Assembly: GCA_035536455.1 (NCBI GenBank)
Contig: DATLOC010000053.1
Coordinates: 135,478-199,477, forward strand
Direction: 5' to 3'
DNA from: Thermoanaerobaculia bacterium
Lineage (GTDB): Bacteria > Acidobacteriota > Thermoanaerobaculia > Multivoradales > UBA5704
DNA: 64,000 nucleotides
Position 1 is the first letter of the stretch. Every line of letters begins with the position of its first letter. Below, in pieces: positions 16,105-61,468 of the stretch. Position numbers and translations under genes: made by a program. The notes below the pieces were generated by a model that saw nothing but the letters and a program-made list of their open reading frames with translations, did not search any database and had not been told where the DNA came from.

Positions 16105-17048
16105 ACCCCGTTCTTGTACCCGATCAGCGTGCCGTTCGTCGCCGTGTACGACGGATCCGTGGTGAACGTGGTGGTCGAGCCGAAGGCCGGCGTGTAGGCC
16201 GAGCCCGGCTGGATCGAGTACTTCGACACTCTGGCGTGCGGATGGCAAGCGGGGTTCTCCTGCGCGGCCAGCCAACTGCTCAGGAGCACCGGCTTGTCGA
16301 ACATGCCGGGGTCGATGACCATCGCCAGCTCGGCGCTGACGCCCAGCTTCTTGATGGTGATGCGCACCCGCACGAGGGGAGCGACGTGGTACCACCAGGT
16401 CACGCAGCAGCCGCCCCATTTGTTCGCCTGCACCGACAGCCGGTCGAAGTTGTCGACGGCAAAGCTGAACACCTTCTCGCAGCAGTAGCCGTACTGGGTG
16501 GTGATGATCCGGCGCATCTCGTGGGCGCGCGCGTAGCAACCATCCCTCACGTACTGGAACGGGATGCAGTTCGGCACGCCGAACGGCCCCGGCAGGTGAC
16601 ACGACTGTTGCGCGCAGAAGTCGAAGATCGCCTTGGCCGTCGCGTAGTTCGGGACGACGCGCTTGCAGAGCAGGAAGACCGGGATCTTCAGATAGTGCTC
16701 GACGATGTTGAAGGTCGTCGGATCGATCTTCGAGAGGTCGATGTCATGGATCTTCTCGGGCCTCTCGACGTAGGTCCGGCGGCGTTGGAACTCCTCCAGC
16801 TCCACACCGCGGAGGACGTGGATACGCCCGATGAAGCCCCGCCCCTCGTCGAGCTGAGCTTTCACCGGAGCGCCCTTCTCGAAGGCCTCCTCGAGCCGGG
16901 CCGTCGAGGCCTCGGCGGTCCTGGTGGTGGCCGACCGGAAGGTGTAGATCCGCTGCTTCTCGTTGAACAGATACTCGGTCTCCTGCTCGCCCCTGCCCCT
17001 GCGAATGGCGGCGATCGTCAGGAGCTCCTCGCGCGGTTCCCTGGTCAT
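16092..17048 (-). CDS. protein-glutamine glutaminase (protein glutaminase, Cys-His-Asp) with an N-terminal pro-region and no recognisable signal peptide
   Basis: FQYVRDGCYARAHEMRRII...CCEKVF...GGCCVTWWYHVAPLV...VIDPGMF parallels the Chryseobacterium protein-glutaminase catalytic core (…VDGCYARAHKM…CEKQF…CCVAWSYHVA…IIDPSLF). Confidence 0.75.
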   Translation of the reverse strand: MTREPREELLTIAAIRRGRGEQETEYLFNEKQRIYTFRSATTRTAEASTARLEEAFEKGAPVKAQLDEGRGFIGRIHVLRGVELEEFQRRRTYVERPEKIHDIDLSKIDPTTFNIVEHYLKIPVFLLCKRVVPNYATAKAIFDFCAQQSCHLPGPFGVPNCIPFQYVRDGCYARAHEMRRIITTQYGYCCEKVFSFAVDNFDRLSVQANKWGGCCVTWWYHVAPLVRVRITIKKLGVSAELAMVIDPGMFDKPVLLSSWLAAQENPACHPHARVSKYSIQPGSAYTPAFGSTTTFTTDPSYTATNGTLIGYKNGVTCP

Positions 17049-54365: not shown

Positions 54366-54578
54366 CTAGGCTTTCCCCCCTTTGAGCAGGCGCAGCCGGG
54401 TGGCCGGCCGGGAGACCCGTTTCGAGCGCTGCCAGAAGTCCCAGAAGAGCTTGCCGAACCCGACCCACATCAGCGCCACGATGCCGAGCAGGAAGAGGAT
54501 GGCGTTGTTCATGCCGCCCACGATCGGCGCGTCGGCGGCGCCGAAGCAGGTGGCGCAGGCGGCGGCCCAGCCGGTCAC
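54366..54578 (-). CDS. small membrane protein with CxxC (70 aa)
   Basis: MTGWAAACATCFGAADAPIVGGMNNAILFLLGIVALMWVGFG; tightly packed between cox genes. Confidence 0.45.
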   Translation of the reverse strand: MTGWAAACATCFGAADAPIVGGMNNAILFLLGIVALMWVGFGKLFWDFWQRSKRVSRPATRLRLLKGGKA

Positions 54579-54579
54579 C

Positions 54580-54798
54580 TCACTCCTCCTCCGGCGCGAT
54601 GCGGCGGAGCTTGTCGCGCACCCGCAGGCCGTAGACCGCGAGCACCGCGGCGACGGCGAAGAAGACGAGCCCCATCCCCAGCTCCGTGCCGGCGCCCGAG
54701 GCGCGCCAGGCGCCGATCCCCCACACCCCCACCCACGCCGAGAGCAGCACCGAGGCGGCGATGAAGAAGAGGTGGAAGGTGCGCAGGGAGAGCGGCAT
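54580..54798 (-). CDS. small two-TM membrane protein (72 aa)
   Basis: MPLSLRTFHLFFIAASVLLSAWVGVWGIGAW... Confidence 0.45.
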   Translation of the reverse strand: MPLSLRTFHLFFIAASVLLSAWVGVWGIGAWRASGAGTELGMGLVFFAVAAVLAVYGLRVRDKLRRIAPEEE

Positions 54799-54804
54799 CG
54801 CGCG

Positions 54805-55122
54805 CTAGCCCGTCCCCTGCCGGATGCCGATGGTGTCCCCTTCGGTGCCCAAGGGAATCAACATCAGGGCGATGAAGAAGACCACCGTCAGCGCCAGCAG
54901 CCAGTAGATCACCCGTCGTTCGTCGAGCAGATGCATGAAGTAGCCGGCCACCAAGGACCCCTTGACGACCGCGATGAGCAAAGCCACCGCAACCGTCATG
55001 CCCGGGCCGAGCTGCAGTCGGCTCGCCGCCACCGTCACCACCGTCAGCACCGCCAGCGCCGCGAAGACCAGCACGTAGGTGCGGGTCTGCCGCCGGATCG
55101 CCTCCACGTCGTGTCCGCTCAT
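54805..55122 (-). CDS. cytochrome c oxidase subunit IV (bacterial aa3/caa3 CtaF-like)
   Basis: TRTYVLVFAALAVLTVVTVAASRL...VAGYFMHLL. Confidence 0.6.
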   Translation of the reverse strand: MSGHDVEAIRRQTRTYVLVFAALAVLTVVTVAASRLQLGPGMTVAVALLIAVVKGSLVAGYFMHLLDERRVIYWLLALTVVFFIALMLIPLGTEGDTIGIRQGTG

Positions 55123-55140
55123 CGTGCCTCCGTCCCTCCG

Positions 55141-55731
55141 TCAGAGCAGGTACAGCGTCGGGAACAGGAAGATCCACACCAGGTCCACGAAGTGCCAGTA
55201 CAGGCCGGCCACCTCGATGCGGTTGGCGAAGCGCTCGGGGTCGCGCTTCCAGAGCTTCGCGCCGGGGCCCCAGAAGTAGCCGTTGACGATCATCCCGCCG
55301 AGCACGTGCAGGCCGTGCAGGCCGGTCAACGTGAAGTAGATGGCGAGGAAGGTATTGGTCGACGGGTAGAGATGGTGCTCGAACTTGGTGCCGTACTCGA
55401 CGGCCTTGACGATCATGAAGCCGAACCCGGCGAGGATCGTCAGCCCCATGTAGAGCCGGTACTTCTTGAAGTCGCCGAGCTTGAGCGAGGCCCACGACAT
55501 GACCATCGTCACCGACGAGCCGATGAGGATGAGCGTGTTGAGGGTGGCGAGCCAGACGTTCAGGTACTCCGAGCCGTGCGGCCAGCTCGCGGCGCCGGTG
55601 CGCAGCAGCACGTAGGAGGAGAAGAGGGCGCCGAAGAGCATCACCTCGGAGGCCAGGAAGAGCCAGATTCCGAGCTTGGCGTTGTAGAGGCCGGTGTCCG
55701 GCCGCGGCTCGACGGTGTAGGGGATCTGCAT
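55141..55731 (-). CDS. coxC: cytochrome c oxidase subunit III
   Basis: GIWLFLASEVMLFGALFSSY...HGLHVLGGMI...YWHFVDLVWIFLF. Confidence 0.85.
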   Translation of the reverse strand: MQIPYTVEPRPDTGLYNAKLGIWLFLASEVMLFGALFSSYVLLRTGAASWPHGSEYLNVWLATLNTLILIGSSVTMVMSWASLKLGDFKKYRLYMGLTILAGFGFMIVKAVEYGTKFEHHLYPSTNTFLAIYFTLTGLHGLHVLGGMIVNGYFWGPGAKLWKRDPERFANRIEVAGLYWHFVDLVWIFLFPTLYLL

Positions 55732-55734
55732 GGC

Positions 55735-57516
55735 TCAGGCCGCCTCTTCGTCGGCGTGGCCGTTCTGCGTCAGGTAGGCGGCGGGCGCCTCCGGGACGCT
55801 GTACTCGTAGGGGCCGCGCACCACCGTCGGCACGTGCGCGAAGTTGCCGTGCGGGATCGGCGGCGAGGGGGCGGCGGCCCACTCCAGGGTCGTCGCCTCC
55901 CAGTGGTTGTCGGCCACGCGCTTGCCCTTCGCCATGCTCCAGAAGAAGTTGATGATGAAGGGGATCTGCGCCAGGCCCAGGCACCAGGCCGAGACCGACA
56001 TCACCTCGTTGAGCCAAAGCACGTCCTGGGCGTGGGCGTACTGCTGGCCGCCGTCGTAGAGGCGGCGCGAGACCCCGGCCAGACCCTGCCAGAACATCGG
56101 CATGAAGACGCCGTTGATGAACAGGAACGAGGGCCAGAAGTGGATCTTCCCCAGCAGCTCGTTCATCTTCTTGCCGGTCACCTTCGGGAACCAATAGTAG
56201 ATGCCGGCGAACATGGCGAAGATCGTCCCCGGCGCCACCACGTAGTGGAAGTGGCCGATGACGTAGTAGGTGTCGTGGAGGTGGATGTCGGCGGCGGCGA
56301 GCCCGAGCGGCAGCCCGGTGAGGCCGCCGATGCCGAACATCGGCAGGAAGGCGAGGGCGAAGAGCATCGGCGTGTTGAAGCGGATCGAGCCCCCCCAGAG
56401 CGACAGGAAGAGGGCCGAGAGGATGATCACCGAGGGGATCGAGATGATCATCGTCGTGGTCTGGAAGAAGGTCGAGATCGCCGTCCCCATGCCGGTCAGA
56501 AACATGTGGTGGGACCAGACGATGAACGACATGAAGCCGACGAAGATCAGCGAGTAGACCATCGAGCGGTAGCCGTAGAGGGGCTTCCGCGTGTTGTTGG
56601 TGATGACCTCGGCGACGATGCCGAAGGCGGGGAGGATGAGGACGTAGACCTCGGGGTGGGCGAGGAACCAGAAGAGGTGCTGCCAGAGCAGCGGGCTGCC
56701 GCCCCCGGCGACCTCGAGGGCCTTGCCCGAGATGACCAGCCCCTCCGGCAGGAAGAAGCTGGTGCCGGCGACGCGGTCCAAGAACTGGAGGATCGCCGCC
56801 GCCTGCAGGGCCGGGAAGGCGAGCAGCAGCAGGAACGAGGTCACGAACTGGGCCCAGACGAAGAACGGCAGCCGGAACCAGGTGAGCCCCGGAGCGCGGA
56901 GCTGGATGATGGTGACCAGGAAGTTGGTGGCGCCGAGCAGCGAGGAGAAGATCAGGAAGAGCATGCCGACCAGCCACCAGGTCTGGCCGGCGGTGGCGAT
57001 GTTGGAGAGCGGCGGGTAGGAGGTCCAGCCCGAGTTGGCGGCCCCGCCCGGCGCGAAGAAGCTCGCCAGCATGACCACCCCGCCCACGAAGTAGAACCAG
57101 TAGCTCGCCATGTTGAGCTTGGGGAAGGCCATATCGGGGGCGCCGATCTGCAGCGGCACGACGTAGTTGCCGAAGGCGCCGACGGCGAGCGGCACGATCC
57201 CCAGGAAGACCATGATCGTGCCGTGCATGGCCCCGAGCTGGTTGTAGAACTCGGGGAGCATGATGCCGCCGGTGGCCTGGCCCTCGCCGAGCAGCCCGCC
57301 GATCAGCGGCAGCGGCTTGCCTGGGTAGGCGAGCTGCCAGCGCATCATCATCATCAGGGTGAAGCCGAAGAGCAGGAAGGCGAGGGCGGTGAAGCCGTAC
57401 TGAATGCCGATCACCTTGTGGTCCTGCGAGAAGACGTACTTGCGCCAGAAGCCCGGCTCGTCGTGGTGGGCGGCGTCGTGCGCGTGCCCGCCCCGTTCCT
57501 CGACCAGTGCACTCAT
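55735..57516 (-). CDS. coxA: cytochrome c oxidase subunit I
   Basis: Start MSALVEERGG; 12 TM helices; conserved His ligands (WAHHMF, HFHYV). Track ORF 55735..57648 is over-extended. Confidence 0.85.
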   Translation of the reverse strand: MSALVEERGGHAHDAAHHDEPGFWRKYVFSQDHKVIGIQYGFTALAFLLFGFTLMMMMRWQLAYPGKPLPLIGGLLGEGQATGGIMLPEFYNQLGAMHGTIMVFLGIVPLAVGAFGNYVVPLQIGAPDMAFPKLNMASYWFYFVGGVVMLASFFAPGGAANSGWTSYPPLSNIATAGQTWWLVGMLFLIFSSLLGATNFLVTIIQLRAPGLTWFRLPFFVWAQFVTSFLLLLAFPALQAAAILQFLDRVAGTSFFLPEGLVISGKALEVAGGGSPLLWQHLFWFLAHPEVYVLILPAFGIVAEVITNNTRKPLYGYRSMVYSLIFVGFMSFIVWSHHMFLTGMGTAISTFFQTTTMIISIPSVIILSALFLSLWGGSIRFNTPMLFALAFLPMFGIGGLTGLPLGLAAADIHLHDTYYVIGHFHYVVAPGTIFAMFAGIYYWFPKVTGKKMNELLGKIHFWPSFLFINGVFMPMFWQGLAGVSRRLYDGGQQYAHAQDVLWLNEVMSVSAWCLGLAQIPFIINFFWSMAKGKRVADNHWEATTLEWAAAPSPPIPHGNFAHVPTVVRGPYEYSVPEAPAAYLTQNGHADEEAA

Positions 57517-57649
57517 GCGGCCTTCTCCTCTTGGGGTGCCTCGAAAACCGGCGGGAGTGTATGGGAGGCGCGGAGGGCTGGGCAAGCGGGGCGGGCGGAG
57601 TCGGAAAGGGGCCGTCGAGAGGCTGCGCGATGCCAAAACGGCGCGCAAA

Positions 57650-57890
57650 TCGCTCCGGTACGGAGATGGAAGCGCCGGTACCGTAATGGACGCGCCGTTA
57701 CGGTACCGGGCGCCCCGTTACCGTACCGGGCGCCCCGTCACCATACCGGGCGCCCCGTTACCGTACCGGGCGCTCCGTTACCGTAATGGAAGCTCCGTTA
57801 CCGTACCGGACGGACCGTTACCGTAACGGACGCTCCGTCACCATACCGGACGCGCCGTGTCCATAACGGACGCGGCGGTGCGTTCGCGGC
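57650..57890. repeat. tandem array C (~10 units of 20 bp; CGTTACCGTACCGGGCGCCC-like; cores GTTAC-C-GTAAC / GGTACC)
   Basis: cgttacggtaccgggcgccc / cgttaccgtaccgggcgccc / cgtcaccataccgggcgccc / cgttaccgtaacggacgctc ...; divergent promoter region between coxA and a plus-strand membrane gene. Confidence 0.85.
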
Positions 57891-57932
57891 TGGTGTAGGC
57901 TCGACCTCGCCGCGCTAACAGGGAGATCCGCC

Positions 57933-58667
57933 ATGTCCGAAGGCACCGGGAGGTCGGTCCTGTGGTGGCTGTGCCTGTTCTTCGCGCCGCTGGTCCTGCT
58001 GGTCATCGAGCTGTTCCACCCCGCGGGGTTCACCAAGGACCCCGGGATGTTCGCGTACCTCTCCCAGCCCGAAGCCCACAGCCCGCAGCACGGGGCGCTG
58101 GCCTACTTCGGGCCACGGTGGTGGTTCACGCTGCACATGATCCAGACGTTGCTGATGGGGCTGGTGGCGGTTGGGCTCTGGCTCTTGGTCGACGGCTTCG
58201 GGCCCAGCGACCGGCGGCCGGCCGGGATCCTCGCCTGGCTCTCCCGCGTCGCGGCATTCGTCTTCCTCATTTACTACACGGCGCTCGACTCGATCGGCGG
58301 CAGCGGTCTGGGGCGCACCATCGAGCACACGCTGGCGATGAACCTGCCGCCCGACCAGCTCGCGGCGGTGGCGGCGGTCCTCGACGCCACCTGGACCGAC
58401 CCCTGGGTCGGCGGCGTGGGCTCCTTCATCAGCGAGACCGGCTCCTGGGCGGTCTTCATCGCGGCGCTGGCCGCCGCCGGGGCCTTGTTCGCGGCGAAGA
58501 AGGCGCCCTGGCCGCCGCTCGTCCTGCTCGTCGCCTTCGGCTGGGAGCTGCAGGTCAGCCACGCCGCCCCGCACGGGCCGATCGCCTTCGCCCTGCTGCT
58601 GGTCGCGGCGTTCTGGCTCTGGTGGGTGTGGCGGCGGCGGCCAGCGGGCCGTATGCTGGACGCCTAG
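57933..58667 (+). CDS. hypothetical polytopic membrane protein
   Basis: MSEGTGRSVLWWLCLFFAPLVLLVIELF... has multiple TM helices. Confidence 0.55.
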   Translation: MSEGTGRSVLWWLCLFFAPLVLLVIELFHPAGFTKDPGMFAYLSQPEAHSPQHGALAYFGPRWWFTLHMIQTLLMGLVAVGLWLLVDGFGPSDRRPAGILAWLSRVAAFVFLIYYTALDSIGGSGLGRTIEHTLAMNLPPDQLAAVAAVLDATWTDPWVGGVGSFISETGSWAVFIAALAAAGALFAAKKAPWPPLVLLVAFGWELQVSHAAPHGPIAFALLLVAAFWLWWVWRRRPAGRMLDA

Positions 58668-58678
58668 GGAGAAGCACA

Positions 58679-59185
58679 ATGAATCCGACACGCCGAGAGC
58701 TGTTGCAGAGCGGAGCGCTGGCCGCGGCCGGCACGCTCCTCATTTCCCCGCGCATTCTCCTCGCCCAGAACCCGCCGTCGTCCGCCCCGGACCGCGGGCC
58801 GGCGCTCGACAAGGAGCTGGTGCGCGAGTTCGTGGGCGCCGCCCACGCCAATCTCGCGCGGACCAAAGAGATGCTCGAGCCGCAGCCGGCGCTGGTCAAT
58901 GCCACCTGGGACTGGGGCGGCGGCGACTGGGAGACCGGCTTGGGCGGCGCCTCGCACATGGGGAGCCGCGAGATCGCCGAGTACCTGCTGGGGAAGGGCG
59001 CGCGGATGGACGTCTTCTGCGCCGCCATGCTCGGCCGTATCGAGATCGTCAAGGCGTTCCTGGCCGCCGATCCGCAGGTCGTCCACCTGCGCGGCCCGCA
59101 CGGCATCGCGCTGGTGCGCCACGCCGTGGCCGGCAAGCAGCAGGCGGTGGTCGACCTGCTCGTCGCGGCCGGCGCCAACGCCTGA
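58679..59185 (+). CDS. Tat-signal ankyrin-repeat protein
   Basis: MNPTRRELLQSGALAAAGTLL; ANK-like GSREIAEYLLGKGARMDV...HGIALVRHAVAGKQQAVVDLLVAAGANA. Confidence 0.65.
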   Translation: MNPTRRELLQSGALAAAGTLLISPRILLAQNPPSSAPDRGPALDKELVREFVGAAHANLARTKEMLEPQPALVNATWDWGGGDWETGLGGASHMGSREIAEYLLGKGARMDVFCAAMLGRIEIVKAFLAADPQVVHLRGPHGIALVRHAVAGKQQAVVDLLVAAGANA

Positions 59186-59596
59186 GGCCGGCAAGCTTGC
59201 GACTTCTAGCCTAGAGAGATATCTCGCGGAACCTGGAACGTCGACAGCTTCAAGGAAGCTCGATTATTATTCTCGAAGGGCCTCTACCTCAGCCCCGGCT
59301 ACAGGCGGCCGTGGAGAATGTAAGGTCGCCTGACCTCACGCCTGACCCAGCCATGCCGCCGAGCAGGGTCAAGTGCCACGGGGCGTTCCGGGCGGATGTA
59401 GCCGAGACCGCAACCCCTACTCGCAAACCGGGCAAACCCGCCAGGACGACCACGGCGAAATCTCCGAATGTATTGTTGATGGCAGACCGCTCTAAAACCG
59501 CGCTAGAAGCACGCACCATAAACAGGGCGAAAGTTTCGGTTAGCTTTGGGGCGAAGCTCGAAAGCAGCGCGCTCCCACTGCTCTACAGAGCGCGTC

Positions 59597-59764
59597 TCAA
59601 GCTCCAACCAGGTATTTGTGTTTGCATCCTGGGCAAGAATTCCCTTTCCTTCCGTGTTGGCTGCACCACCAAGCACCACACTTGGGGCACCTCGCAAAAA
59701 TACGGCCGCTCTTCTCCGTCGCAGTACACCCTGATGCTGCGCAGTGGATTACCGCCATCTCCAT
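59597..59764 (-). CDS. small Cys-rich zinc-binding protein (55 aa; treble-clef/B-box-like C-x4-C...C-x2-C-x3-C-x2-H...C-x2-C)
   Basis: AGGAGGA RBS plus ATGGAGATG; MEMAVIHCAASGCTATEKSGRIFARCPKCGAWWCSQHGRKGNSCPGCKHKYLVGA. Below the 60-aa track cutoff. Confidence 0.5.
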   Translation of the reverse strand: MEMAVIHCAASGCTATEKSGRIFARCPKCGAWWCSQHGRKGNSCPGCKHKYLVGA

Positions 59765-59788
59765 TCCTCCTAGCCTCTGAGAGCTATG

Positions 59789-59929
59789 CTATCGAAGTGT
59801 GTGCCCGCAAAGAGGGCAATGGCCGTGTCCCCAAGCACAATCCTTACAGATGAAGTGCCCTTTACTACAGGTCTTGCCGCCATAGACATCTTTATGGTGG
59901 CCGCATTTGTCGCAAACTCGTTGTGACAT
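59789..59929 (-). CDS. small RING-finger-like zinc-binding protein (46 aa; C-x2-C-x11-C-x3-H-x2-C-x2-C-x6-C-x2-C)
   Basis: MSQRVCDKCGHHKDVYGGKTCSKGHFICKDCAWGHGHCPLCGHTLR, hand-translated from the minus strand. Confidence 0.45.
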   Translation of the reverse strand: MSQRVCDKCGHHKDVYGGKTCSKGHFICKDCAWGHGHCPLCGHTLR

Positions 59930-60006
59930 TCTAGAATCTCCTTGGGAGCAATCTTGCTAGTTAAGAGTCAGGGTATATCTGTTGTCTTAGCACAAAAAAG
60001 TCTTGC

Positions 60007-60357
60007 TCAGAGGCGCAAAACAACCACAACGAGAACCGCGACAATGCTAAGCAAGACCATGCAGCCAGTATCGCCTCTTGAGGGCGATGGCAAAGAGGTT
60101 CTCACCCGCTTTGACCCTGAACTGGACGGGGAAATGGATGCAGATGAAGACCTGCTGTCTGTAGCGCCACCCCTAAGAAAATCAGGGTTGTTTTGTGCTG
60201 CGGTTTTCTTGGAGGGTCGGATCCTCCCAGGGTCGCCCTGTTCAGCCAGGATATTGACTGTTTTACAGCGCCGACACCGCCACACATCACCGATCTTCGC
60301 AGTGCGCGGCCAATGAATCGTCTTACCGCAACGGCACGTGTGTGTCATATGTGGCAT
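60007..60357 (-). CDS. tail-anchored zinc-ribbon membrane protein (C-x-C...C-x2-C, Ser-rich linker, C-terminal TM)
   Basis: GGAGA RBS; MPHMTHTCRCGKTIHWPRTAKIGDVWRCRRCKTV...CMVLLSIVAVLVVVVLRL. An antisense plus-strand ORF 59942..60316 is the alternative. Confidence 0.45.
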   Translation of the reverse strand: MPHMTHTCRCGKTIHWPRTAKIGDVWRCRRCKTVNILAEQGDPGRIRPSKKTAAQNNPDFLRGGATDSRSSSASISPSSSGSKRVRTSLPSPSRGDTGCMVLLSIVAVLVVVVLRL

Positions 60358-60463
60358 CTGGTAAGGTCTCCTTCCCGACCAAGAAACCGCCTGCAGGGCC
60401 TGAACCACTATTGCACGACTTGCCGCAACATCGGTCGGCGCATTCGACAGTTGACTGCCGTGG

Positions 60464-60500
60464 TATGCGAGCTTAAACGGTTAAGCTTAGCATACCATAA
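60464..60500. promoter_or_regulatory. long imperfect palindrome GGTATGCGAGCTTAAACGGTTAAGCTTAGCATACC (core AAGCTTAA-ACGG-TTAAGCTT) at the island border, ~100 nt upstream of the zinc-ribbon gene set
   Basis: Read directly; candidate operator or recombination site. Confidence 0.4.
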
Positions 60501-60559
60501 GGTGGTGTGCCGGCGGTGGCGATGCGGTCGCGGGGAGGCCGGAGCCGCGGCCGGCGCGC

Positions 60560-60830
60560 AGGCCTGACCGAAGCCCCATCCTCGCCTCGCGGGGGGTGGC
60601 TTCCGAACGGGTCGGTGCCCGCCCTTACACGGGCACGGGTTTCACATGGGAAGGCGTTCTTGTGGGGAAGCGTTCGCCCGGGTGGGCAGGGCGTTCACCC
60701 CTCGAGAGCACCTTTTAGGGACGGCGCCGCCCTTTTCGGGTTGGCGGCGGGCATACTCGGGGAGGCGTCTTCCCCTTTGCCGTTCCCCCAGGGGGCGGCG
60801 TTCCGCCTTTCGGGGAGGGCCTATCCCTCG
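60560..60830. repeat. GC-rich structured intergenic region with ~7 loosely periodic GGG(A/G)GGCGTTC...CCCTTT units and a perfect 7-bp hairpin (GTGCCCG-N8-CGGGCAC at about 60613-60636)
   Basis: gggaaggcgttcttgtgg / ggaagcgttcgcccgggtg / gcagggcgttcacccctcg / gggaggcgtcttcccctttgcc / gggggcggcgttccgcctttcgggg. Confidence 0.5.
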
Positions 60831-61468
60831 TGCCCGAGGGCCGCGGCGTCGAGCCCGAGGCGGTGTATCGCCTCGTCGTCGAAGGCGTCGTAGTAGCCGC
60901 GGATGCGGCCTTCGCCGTCCACCAGGACGAAACGGTTGCTGTGGAGGATCGGCTCCTGGGGCGACGCCGTCCCCGGCGGCGGCGACGGCTCGACGGCGAG
61001 CAGAAAGCCCTCGCGGACCAAGGGGTAGACCTCGGCGGCCGAGCCGCTCAGGAAAAGCCAGTCGTCGGGCGCGGCGTAGCGCTCGGCGTAGCGCGCCAGC
61101 ACCTCCGGCGTGTCGTGCTCCGGGTCGACGGTGAAGCTGACGCGGCGGAACGGGGGCTCCTCTCGCCCGCGGCCCAGGTCCGCCATCCGCTCGGTCATCA
61201 GCGGGCAGGACAGGGCGCAGCGGGTGAAGACGAAGTCGGCCACCCAGGGGCGGCCGGCGAGGTCGGCGCGGGTGACCGTGCGGCCGTCGCGGTTGGTGAG
61301 CGCGAAGTCCGGCACCTGCCCGAGCACGGGCGGCGGCGCGGCCTCCCCGCCCGCCAACCGGCTCCAGAGCGCGGCGCCGCCGATCCCCACCAGCGCCAGC
61401 ACCAGCACCGCCCAGAGGACGAGCCGCTGGAAACGGCGCGCGGACGCCGACGCGGGCGCGACGCTCAA
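60821..61468 (-). CDS. SCO1/SenC copper chaperone
   Basis: TTG start in TTGA overlap; TM; FVFTRCALSCP CxxxC; DPEHDTPEVL. Confidence 0.8.
   Translation of the reverse strand: MSVAPASASARRFQRLVLWAVLVLALVGIGGAALWSRLAGGEAAPPPVLGQVPDFALTNRDGRTVTRADLAGRPWVADFVFTRCALSCPLMTERMADLGRGREEPPFRRVSFTVDPEHDTPEVLARYAERYAAPDDWLFLSGSAAEVYPLVREGFLLAVEPSPPPGTASPQEPILHSNRFVLVDGEGRIRGYYDAFDDEAIHRLGLDAAALGHEG

What the first reader, a model, noticed from the sequence alone, without database searches (positions are those of the whole stretch)
59190..60540. AT-rich island encoding three tandem small zinc-ribbon/RING-like proteins, bounded by a 35-bp palindrome
Base composition drops sharply for ~1.35 kb. On the minus strand, each with a Shine-Dalgarno, are three ORFs. 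One is a 116-aa tail-anchored zinc-ribbon protein. One is a 46-aa protein whose Cys/His spacing (C-x2-C-x11-C-x3-H-x2-C-x2-C-x6-C-x2-C) matches a C3HC4 RING finger. One is a 55-aa B-box/treble-clef-like protein. Two fall below the 60-aa track cutoff. About 100 nt upstream of the first ORF is GGTATGCGAGCTTAAACGGTTAAGCTTAGCATACC. There is no integrase, transposase or tRNA. Stand-alone bacterial RING-like mini-proteins are unusual. This could be a small mobile cargo module of regulatory or defence function.
Basis: partly seen in the sequence, partly recalled or inferred. Interest (0 to 1): 0.6.

Follow-up and report, generated by a model that had tools for sequence, protein, structure and literature searches.

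The report
Inserted islet of three zinc-finger mini-proteins
A 1.4-1.7 kb piece of foreign, lower-GC DNA in a Thermoanaerobaculia genome carries three real but unannotated genes for tiny zinc-binding proteins, one of them a 46-residue RING-like finger from a family spread across at least six bacterial phyla whose function is still unknown.

Summary
GC falls from about 0.72 to 0.49-0.57 over 59186-60500. The three minus-strand ORFs exist, each with a Shine-Dalgarno, and the 35-bp palindrome is at 60462-60496.

All three proteins have homologues with conserved Cys/His. Third-codon-position changes dominate in the sense frame. The antisense ORFs are broken in relatives, so the stated refutation fails.

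A related genome about 95% identical in the flanks has an empty site: there the Ank and SCO1 genes overlap by 4 nt. The window has about 1.65 kb extra, with imperfect 22-bp direct repeats (19/22) of the Ank 3' end on either side of the low-GC part. No recombinase is present.

The trio is not a conserved module. None of 108 other loci carrying the 46-aa gene holds the other two genes.

The 46-aa protein belongs to an unannotated family of 95 representative clusters, mostly stand-alone. Its AlphaFold model matches RING and ZZ cross-brace domains. No E1, E2 or ubiquitin-like genes lie nearby. Rare fusions join it to a TIR domain and to the toxin-binding domain of an Xre-RES antitoxin.

The likeliest role is a small protein- or DNA-binding regulator in accessory conflict-type cassettes. 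That is inferred, not shown. This is a new member of a known kind, of moderate interest.

The parts
58679..59185 (+). Host ankyrin-repeat gene with a Tat-like signal. It forms the left flank of the insert.
   Evidence: Pfam Ank. GC3 is 0.92. It is 89% nt identical to the Ank gene of relative L122.
59164..59185 (+). Left copy of the 22-bp imperfect direct repeat, CGCGGCCGGCGCCAACGCCTGA. It is the last 22 nt of the Ank gene, stop codon included.
   Evidence: (D10). The only other match in 64 kb with up to 3 mismatches is the right copy; shuffles give a mean of 0.02.
59186..59596 (.). Tail of the insert with intermediate GC and no recognisable gene. The 76-aa ORF at 59289-59519 (minus strand) has no Shine-Dalgarno and no homologue.
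   Evidence: no match in any fetched locus.
59597..59764 (-). Gene C: 55 aa, probably 53 aa from the second ATG at 59758. It has 7 Cys and 1 His spaced C-x4-C-x12-C-x2-C-x4-C-x2-H-x6-C-x2-C, an AN1-like arrangement consistent with a two-zinc finger.
   Evidence: Homologues P0011 (91%) and P0012 (81%) keep all ligands. Codon-position differences are 0.095/0.095/0.63. Pfam zf-AN1 gives E 0.0014, below its cut-off. The AF2 model is poor, pLDDT 62.
59789..59929 (-). Gene B: 46-aa RING/ZZ-like cross-brace zinc finger, C6 C9 C21 H25 C28 C31 C38 C41, plus conserved H35, H37 and H43.
60007..60357 (-). Gene A: 116-aa protein with an N-terminal zinc ribbon (C8-x-C10 ... C28-x2-C31), a Ser/Thr/Pro/Arg-rich linker and a C-terminal membrane anchor. 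pI 11.1.
   Evidence: Homologues P0001 and P0002 are 57-58% identical, with residues 1-47 nearly invariant and the hydrophobic tail conserved. Kyte-Doolittle maximum is 3.47 at residues 100-114. Weak zinc-ribbon Pfam hits fall below cut-off.
60462..60496 (.). Imperfect 35-bp palindrome (7 + 7 bp stems, one bulge, 4-nt loop), 105 nt upstream of gene A. It is a candidate operator or recombination-related site.
   Evidence: It is absent from all other fetched loci.
60546..60567 (+). Right copy of the direct repeat, CGCGGCCGGCGCGCAGGCCTGA. It resembles the 3' end of the Ank gene of the relative (18/20).
60568..60820 (.). GC-rich 253-nt spacer between the right repeat and the SCO1 stop codon. It is absent from the relative and its origin is unexplained.
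60821..61468 (-). Host SCO1/SenC gene, the right flank. Its last ~13 codons differ from those of the relative.
   Evidence: Pfam SCO1-SenC, E 8e-25. Translation. It is 94.5% nt identical to L122.

Best explanation
This is a horizontally acquired, recombinase-less islet. The low-GC part spans 59186-60545. Relative to a sister genome, the replaced stretch is 59179-60852. It sits between the convergent 3' ends of the Ank and SCO1 genes of a Thermoanaerobaculia bacterium.

The islet carries three genuine small genes in one direction, probably one transcript. A is a tail-anchored membrane protein with a cytoplasmic zinc ribbon. B is a 46-residue two-zinc cross-brace finger of the RING/ZZ structural class. 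C is a second finger whose ligand count fits two zincs, with AN1-like ligand spacing.

The three genes are independent units that occur elsewhere with other partners. B in particular is a highly conserved gene that moves between lineages. In high-GC hosts it sits in similar ~1-kb low-GC patches, in operons with other small proteins.

Inferred mechanism: these mini-proteins have no catalytic domain and act by binding partners. B serves as a regulatory, sensor or operator-binding module of the kind placed N-terminal to NAD-targeting effectors. Examples are its fusion to TIR, and its replacement of the HTH domain of an Xre-RES antitoxin. Here A may be its membrane-tethered partner, and the upstream palindrome a possible operator. 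It is not a ubiquitin E3 ligase.

Shown: the genes, their conservation, the insertion, the predicted fold and the fusions. Inferred: the operon structure, zinc binding and the regulatory, conflict-type role.
For: Insertion:
- The GC drop.
- An empty site in relative L122, where SCO1 and Ank overlap by 4 nt while the flanks are 89-98% identical.
- 19/22 direct repeats of the Ank 3' end flank the low-GC part.

Real genes:
- Homologues exist for all three.
- Ligands are invariant.
- Third-position changes are in excess, the sense frame has no stops, and the antisense frames carry stops in 83-96% of B homologues.
- Shine-Dalgarno motifs precede all three.

Independence of the genes:
- No A or C lies near B in 108 loci.
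- DNA similarity is confined to each coding sequence.

Spread of B:
- 104 metagenomic relatives.
- 21 genomes: Acidobacteriota, Bacteroidota, Akkermansia, Syntrophaceae, Dehalococcoidia and Chlamydiota.
- 95 clusters at 50% identity, mostly 42-130 aa.
- Low-GC patches in high-GC hosts.

Functional hints:
- The L071 fusion of B with TIR_2, E 1e-20, also hits PADLOC ThsB and PDC-S66.
- P0045 is B fused to Xre_MbcA_ParS_C (E 5e-18), directly followed by a RES toxin and next to HicAB.
- Canonical Xre antitoxins carry an N-terminal HTH domain there and bind a promoter palindrome (PMC12204516).
- Partners are always on the same strand: a YbjN-like protein in 24 loci, the MKIHI/MKLTL family in about 24, and CFI-box-CTERM proteins in 14.
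- All three window proteins are basic, pI 8.8-11.1.
Against: - No toxin, effector or known regulator lies in the window's islet.
- A, B and C match no Pfam, NCBIfam, PHROG or PADLOC family above threshold.
- The fusions are rare: a handful among 95 clusters.
- B's neighbours are heterogeneous. Among the 150 nearest ORFs, Pfam shows only scattered families (zinc ribbons, VWA, DUF6232, CHAT, TM2), and housekeeping families are hit once each.
- Other B islets show no flanking repeats, and the palindrome is unique to this locus. No general mobility mechanism or operator is therefore established.
- The 253-nt GC-rich spacer and the altered SCO1 C-terminus do not fit a simple one-step integration.
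- Zinc binding, expression and operon structure are untested. The hairpin after gene A is not significantly stable, which only weakly supports co-transcription.
Confidence: 0.5

Rival explanations
1. B (and perhaps C) is a minimal RING-type E3 or adaptor of a prokaryotic ubiquitin-like conjugation system. It would work with E1, E2 and Ubl proteins encoded elsewhere.
For: The spacing fits the C3HC4 consensus and the ligands are conserved. The predicted fold matches RING domains of E3 ligases. Relatives give weak hits to RING profiles: zf-C3HC4_3 E 9e-4, and Sina_RING and zf-RING_5 at about E 0.005-0.01. Prokaryotic RING E3s in Ubl operons are known (Burroughs et al. 2011, as cited in PMC7159879).
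Against: No E1, E2, Ubl or JAB family appears among the families reported for the 150 nearest neighbours of B homologues, nor in the window's flanks. All RING profile scores are below the curated cut-offs, and Prok-RING_4 gives E 0.93. The model matches ZZ domains, which are peptide binders, equally well. A 46-residue protein has no substrate-binding part.
Confidence: 0.04
2. The three proteins are ordinary small zinc-finger regulators or stress proteins, like archaeal zinc-finger micro-proteins or the anti-sigma factor CsfB. They would have host-physiology roles unrelated to conflict or toxin-antitoxin systems, and they merely travel by gene transfer.
Against: Patchy distribution across six or more phyla, high identity and the atypical GC of the islets point to accessory, mobile genes. 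The fusions to TIR and to a RES-toxin antitoxin are conflict-type contexts. CHAT, TIR_2 and restriction-modification genes lie near some homologues.
Confidence: 0.25
3. The islet is a metal-handling accessory: cysteine-rich zinc- or copper-binding proteins recruited next to the SCO1 copper chaperone and the cytochrome oxidase assembly genes.
For: The insert lies beside SCO1/SenC, UbiA (haem O synthase-like) and COX genes. The three proteins carry 5-7 Cys each.
Against: Homologues of A, B and C sit in unrelated neighbourhoods with no metal-homeostasis theme. The sister genome has the same oxidase cluster without the islet. The ligand geometry is that of structural zinc sites.
Confidence: 0.05
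4. The minus-strand ORFs are chance ORFs in AT-richer DNA. Either the plus-strand ORFs 59311-59853 and 59942-60316 are the genes, or nothing here is coding.
For: The plus-strand ORFs are long, at 180 and 124 aa. Composition gives no codon-position signal in either strand.
Against: The plus ORFs have no Pfam hit. The 180-aa ORF spans the antisense of two genes that are never adjacent elsewhere. The antisense frames of B carry stops in 83-96% of 95 homologues, and the antisense frames of A are broken in L001 and L003. The sense frames show strong third-position bias and conserved ligands.
Confidence: 0.01

Closest known systems
Prokaryotic RING and other binuclear treble-clef zinc fingers (Burroughs, Iyer & Aravind 2011, Mol BioSyst 7:2261, cited in PMC7159879; Pfam Prok-RING_1 to _4)
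   Same: Eight-ligand C3HC4-type spacing. A predicted cross-brace fold whose best structural matches are RING domains. A bacterial origin and an occurrence near conflict-type genes.
   Different: No significant match to any RING or Prok-RING profile. No E1, E2, Ubl or JAB neighbours. It is a stand-alone 46-residue protein with three extra conserved His.
ZZ domain (p62/SQSTM1, CBP/p300, HERC2)
   Different: No sequence-profile match. ZZ domains are eukaryotic and embedded in large proteins, and the ligand pattern differs in detail.
Xre-RES / MbcA-MbcT / ParS-ParT type II toxin-antitoxin systems
   Same: A B-family domain forms the N-terminus of an antitoxin with the Xre_MbcA_ParS_C toxin-binding domain. 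That antitoxin is directly followed by a RES toxin. The window's islet has a promoter-proximal palindrome, as autoregulated xre-res operons do (PMC12204516).
   Different: The window encodes no RES toxin and no MbcA/ParS_C domain. B stands where the HTH domain normally is, so its DNA binding is only inferred.
Stand-alone small zinc-finger proteins: Haloferax one-domain zinc-finger micro-proteins (PMC6562870), the 'Small CPxCG-related zinc finger protein' of PDB 8q5b, and Bacillus CsfB/Gin
   Same: Size of 40-60 residues, CxxC-based zinc sites, stand-alone genes, and action by binding partners.
Integrase-less integrated islets flanked by att-like repeats (cis-mobilisable element type remnants)
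   Same: Atypical composition, insertion at the 3' end of a gene with a short duplication of that end, and an empty site in a relative.
   Different: No recombinase gene and no tRNA target. The repeats are only 19/22 identical. An extra 253-nt spacer remains unexplained. Other B islets lack such repeats.

Membership tests
RING finger (C3HC4, E3 ligase type) | Ligand spacing C-x2-C-x(9-39)-C-x(1-3)-H-x(2-3)-C-x2-C-x(4-48)-C-x2-C | tested here: met
   B has C6-x2-C9-x11-C21-x3-H25-x2-C28-x2-C31-x6-C38-x2-C41. Each ligand is kept in 84-91 of 91 distinct homologues.
RING finger (C3HC4, E3 ligase type) | Cross-brace two-zinc fold | tested here: inconclusive
RING finger (C3HC4, E3 ligase type) | Significant match to a curated RING profile | tested here: not met
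   Sina_RING E 0.0023 (18.5 bits against a 29.3 cut-off), zf-RING_5 E 0.3, zf-C3HC4_3 E 0.56. Relatives also score below the cut-offs.
RING finger (C3HC4, E3 ligase type) | Functional link to E2 or ubiquitin-like conjugation genes | tested here: not met
   No E1, E2, Ubl or JAB family appears among the reported families of the 150 nearest neighbour ORFs of B homologues, nor in the window's flanks.
RING finger (C3HC4, E3 ligase type) | E3 ligase activity | not testable with these tools
   This needs biochemistry.
Pfam Prok-RING_1 to _4 | Profile match above the gathering score | tested here: not met
   Only Prok-RING_4 appears, at E 0.93 and 9.9 bits against a cut-off of 27.
zf-AN1 (for protein C) | C-x2-C-x(9-12)-C-x(1-2)-C-x4-C-x2-H-x5-H-x-C spacing, with a profile match | tested here: not met
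   C has C-x4-C-x12-C-x2-C-x4-C-x2-H-x6-C-x2-C. The middle four ligands fit but the first and last pairs differ. Pfam gives E 0.0014 and 19.2 bits against a cut-off of 27.9. The model is too poor to judge.
Tail-anchored membrane protein (for protein A) | A single hydrophobic segment at the extreme C-terminus, with the rest cytoplasmic | tested here: met
   Kyte-Doolittle maximum is 3.47 at residues 100-114 of 116, with a mean of -0.87 elsewhere. The hydrophobic tail is conserved in both homologues. Topology itself is not tested.
Type II toxin-antitoxin module | Adjacent toxin and antitoxin genes from recognisable families | tested here: not met
   No toxin or antitoxin family matches A, B or C. 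Only a distant relative of B (P0045) is part of an Xre-RES pair.
Type II toxin-antitoxin module | Palindromic operator at the promoter | tested here: inconclusive
   A palindrome lies 105 nt upstream of gene A. No promoter is mapped and binding is untested.
Integrated mobile islet | Atypical composition together with an empty site in a close relative | tested here: met
Integrated mobile islet | Flanking direct repeats that duplicate the target | tested here: met
   The repeats at 59164-59185 and 60546-60567 match 19/22 and are the only such pair in 64 kb. The right copy matches the relative's Ank 3' end 18/20.
Integrated mobile islet | Its own integrase or transposase | tested here: not met
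   No recombinase is present in the insert or its flanks.
Integron gene cassettes | An attC site of at least ~57 bp after each ORF | tested here: not met
   The B-C gap is 24 nt and the A-B gap is 77 nt, with only a weak hairpin. No integron integrase is present.
Phage or plasmid cargo | Relatives in viral or plasmid collections | tested here: not met
   blastn against phages and plasmids found nothing. IMG/VR scans with A, B and C found no relative. No PHROG match reaches significance.

The most novel reading that the evidence does not exclude
The 46-residue B protein represents a previously unrecognised, widely transferred bacterial 'mini-RING/ZZ' module. It would act in trans as a sensor or regulator of NAD-targeting toxins and immune effectors (TIR, RES). 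On this reading the window's A-B-C operon is a minimal membrane-anchored conflict cassette built entirely of zinc-finger mini-proteins, in which A is the membrane effector or tether and B and C are its controllers.
Probability: 0.15. Interest if true: 0.7.

Novelty: new member of a known kind. Interest (0 to 1): 0.45.

Why it matters
The three genes fall below or near usual annotation cut-offs. They appear to be absent from the public annotation of this genome. Only two accession numbers lie between the flanking proteins HVF61219 and HVF61222, and the exact sequences are not in a 15-billion-protein collection.

Even so, B belongs to a strongly conserved family found in soil, freshwater, gut and marine bacteria of at least six phyla. 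That makes it a concrete example of conserved, mobile micro-proteins that current pipelines miss.

If the link to TIR and RES systems reflects function, the family would add a new small regulatory module to bacterial toxin-antitoxin and immune systems. It would also add a further bacterial branch of the RING/ZZ fold class, relevant to the origin of eukaryotic zinc-finger adaptors.

The empty-site comparison also documents gene-sized insertions without a recombinase at the junction of two overlapping convergent genes.

Tried and rejected
- blastn of the islet against phage and plasmid collections found no match.
- IMG/VR scans with all three families found no relatives.
- Rfam on the region and on the whole window found nothing.
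- PHROGs, NCBIfam and PADLOC gave no family for A, B or C.
- PDB sequence searches gave nothing significant.
- Exact-sequence look-ups of B and of the Ank protein failed. The organism was identified instead through flanking ABC-transporter proteins.
- I searched for the palindrome or its arms in 97 other loci and found none. It is therefore not a family-wide site.
- I searched for flanking direct repeats around ten other B islets and found none convincing. The repeat is specific to this locus.
- The terminator-like hairpin after gene A is no more stable than shuffled sequence (z 0.16), so I rejected it as evidence for separate transcripts.
- Common partner families of B (YbjN-like, MKIHI/MKLTL, CFI-box-CTERM) were sought in the window's islet and are absent.
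- A profile-profile comparison of B and C shows no detectable homology, at 30% probability.
- The structure prediction of C gave low confidence, pLDDT 62. Its fold matches are not used as evidence.
- An integron-cassette reading was rejected on spacing, and the antisense-ORF reading was rejected on conservation.
- The 1134-aa plus-strand ORF upstream is spurious; the real gene there is COX1 on the minus strand.
Full report
OBSERVATION. The window is about 72% G+C. Between roughly 59186 and 60500 the 300-nt GC falls to 0.49-0.59, against 0.69-0.78 on both sides. The 59001-60000 bin is the lowest of all 64 one-kb bins. Three minus-strand ORFs are present:
- A: 60007-60357, 116 aa.
- B: 59789-59929, 46 aa.
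- C: 59597-59764, 55 aa. It probably starts at the second ATG (53 aa), as its closest homologue does.
Each is preceded by a Shine-Dalgarno motif. The 35-bp palindrome is at 60462-60496, 105 nt upstream of A. It is unique in the window and forms a hairpin far more stable than shuffled sequence (z = -4.5). There is no tRNA in the window, no Rfam match, and no recombinase among the flanking genes. Those genes are an ankyrin-repeat protein, SCO1/SenC, an ABC-2 transporter and UbiA. The description is therefore confirmed.

ARE THE ORFS GENES? Composition does not decide this, because the islet has no GC3 signal in any frame. Homology does.
- A has two homologues, 57-58% identical. Residues 1-47, including the Cys pairs, are almost invariant. 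The linker varies in length and the hydrophobic tail is conserved.
- B has eight close homologues in the indexed search, 104 in metagenome contigs and 21 in species-representative genomes.
- C has two homologues, 81-91% identical.
Over 95 distinct B-homologous DNAs, differences per codon position are 0.22, 0.17 and 0.59. None has a stop in the sense frame, while 83-96% have stops in each antisense frame. For C the figures are 0.095, 0.095 and 0.63. The eight proposed metal ligands of B are each kept in 84-91 of 91 distinct sequences. The plus-strand ORFs named as a possible refutation have no family hits. They are interrupted in the homologous loci, and one of them spans two genes that are never adjacent elsewhere. 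The refutation condition is not met.

IS IT AN INSERTION? Flanking proteins identify the source as a Thermoanaerobaculia MAG with a 250-kb contig. A relative, locus L122 on a 5.46-Mb contig, shares the neighbourhood at 89-98% nucleotide identity. There the SCO1 and Ank genes are convergent and their ends overlap by 4 nt. In the window, 59179-60852 (about 1.67 kb) replaces 25 bp of the relative. The last 22 nt of the Ank gene (59164-59185) recur at 60546-60567 with 19/22 identity. This is the only such match in 64 kb, where shuffles give a mean of 0.02. The right copy resembles the relative's Ank 3' end, 18/20. This is the signature of integration into the 3' end of a gene with duplication of the target. 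Three things complicate that picture. No recombinase is present. A 253-nt GC-rich spacer (60568-60820) and an altered SCO1 C-terminus are not explained by a single clean event. And the same region shows other gene-scale indels between the two genomes.

THE TRIO IS NOT A MODULE. None of the 108 other loci carrying a B homologue contains A or C, and loci with A or C homologues lack the other two. DNA similarity between the window and these loci stops at the ends of each coding sequence; for B it also covers about 20 nt of ribosome-binding region. Each gene is therefore an independent unit. In high-GC hosts B repeatedly lies in 0.8-1.3-kb low-GC patches between housekeeping genes. In low-GC hosts the B gene is GC-richer than its surroundings. 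B's partners, always on the same strand, are:
- a YbjN-like protein of about 145 aa, in 24 loci;
- a family of about 115-aa proteins (MKIHI/MKLTL), in about 24 loci;
- CFI-box-CTERM proteins, in 14 loci (NF041770);
- occasionally VWA plus J-domain proteins, GYF_2, DUF6232, TM2, other small zinc ribbons, CHAT and PP2C.
The A homologue in L001 lies beside another small zinc ribbon, a membrane protein, DUF5677 and a TIR_2 protein. No relative of A, B or C was found in phage, plasmid or IMG/VR collections.

WHAT THE PROTEINS ARE.
- A is an N-terminal four-Cys zinc ribbon followed by a low-complexity basic linker and a C-terminal membrane anchor. The Kyte-Doolittle maximum is 3.47 at residues 100-114 and the pI is 11.1.
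- C has seven Cys and one His in an AN1-like arrangement. It falls below the AN1 cut-off, and its model is too uncertain to use. B and C are not detectably related.

FUNCTION (INFERRED). An exhaustive profile search found 95 representative clusters of B relatives, nearly all 42-130 aa and stand-alone. The few fusions are the only direct clues:
- B is N-terminal to a TIR_2 domain in L071, next to a stand-alone B copy.
- B is N-terminal to the Xre_MbcA_ParS_C toxin-binding domain in P0045. Its gene is immediately followed by a RES toxin and a HicAB pair, in a small islet between housekeeping genes.
- B is also fused to hemerythrin, GYF_2 and a zinc ribbon.
In canonical Xre-RES antitoxins the N-terminal position is a helix-turn-helix domain, and the complex represses its promoter by binding a palindrome (PMC12204516). 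B thus occupies a regulatory or DNA-binding position next to NAD-targeting effectors. No ubiquitin-system genes accompany B anywhere.

My best reading is that the three proteins are partner-binding zinc-finger modules of an accessory, conflict-type or stress-type cassette. A would be the membrane-tethered component, and the palindrome a candidate operator. This functional part is inference, with a probability of roughly one in three. The descriptive part (genes, insertion, family, predicted fold) is well supported.

COMPARISON AND NOVELTY. [quoted passage not shown] Small stand-alone zinc-finger proteins are known in archaea (PMC6562870). The present families are not in Pfam, NCBIfam, PHROGs or PADLOC, and by accession numbering they seem not to be annotated in the source record (inference). 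They are new members of a known kind. The trio arrangement and the recombinase-less, repeat-flanked insertion are particular to this locus. Interest is moderate: a conserved, cross-phylum, unannotated mini-protein family with suggestive links to TIR and RES systems, but no demonstrated function.

Noticed in passing
window 57668-57874: A tandem array of a 20-bp unit (GGACGCGCCGTTACCGTACC, 10.4 copies, 82% matches) lies in the divergent intergenic region between COX1 (minus strand) and the 244-aa membrane-protein gene. The repetitive region is also present in relative L122 at about 16332-16608.
   Followed up: partly
window 54382-57786 (+) versus 55735-57648 (-): The longest ORF here, 1134 aa on the plus strand, has no family hit and is spurious. 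The region is 98% identical to the COX1 gene of L122, which corresponds to the minus-strand ORF.
   Followed up: partly
L122 12129-13945 and 15336-18237, versus window 58667-58679 and 57586-57920: The relative genome carries a HisKA_3/GerE two-component pair between Ank and the 239-aa gene. It also carries CytoC_RC, HTH and 536-aa genes near COX1. All are missing from the window. This oxidase neighbourhood is therefore an indel hot spot between ~95%-identical genomes.
   Followed up: no
window 60568-60820: This GC-rich 253-nt spacer has G-rich motifs (GGGAAGGCGTTC, GGGGAAGCGTTC, GGGCAGGGCGTTC) and small hairpins. It is absent from the relative, unique in the window, and of unknown origin.
   Followed up: partly
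L071 1463-1600 and 1802-2704: A stand-alone B-family gene is directly followed by a gene that fuses a B-family domain to TIR_2 and a Cys-rich C-terminal tail. This suggests duplication and fusion within one locus.
   Followed up: partly
L003 639-1574; L025, L033, L038, L044, L075, L114 and others: Proteins ending in the CFI-box-CTERM domain (CF[IV]ATAAYGS..., NCBIfam NF041770) lie next to B homologues in 14 loci. One also lies next to the A homologue in L003. The different zinc-finger genes therefore draw on a shared pool of neighbours.
   Followed up: partly
L107 10173-12066; L069 10173-12002: In two Acidobacteriota-like loci B is followed by a VWA-domain protein and a protein of about 400 aa with a J-domain HPD motif, all inside one low-GC patch.
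   Followed up: no
L005 8005-8381; L006 7567-7779; L010 1992-2729; L040 1141-1275: Other small Cys-rich proteins cluster near B or C homologues. They include DnaJ-type CxxCxGxG repeats, a 68-aa C-like finger and a 44-aa four-CxxC protein. Tandem zinc-finger mini-genes thus recur even though the particular trio does not.
   Followed up: no
L014 65-1150; L111 8705-9895: ORFs that look like IS4/IS5-type transposases (361 and 396 aa, judged by eye and not scanned against Pfam) lie directly upstream of the B operon in these two loci. One B homologue (P0004) is even named 'transposase-like protein' by IMG.
   Followed up: no
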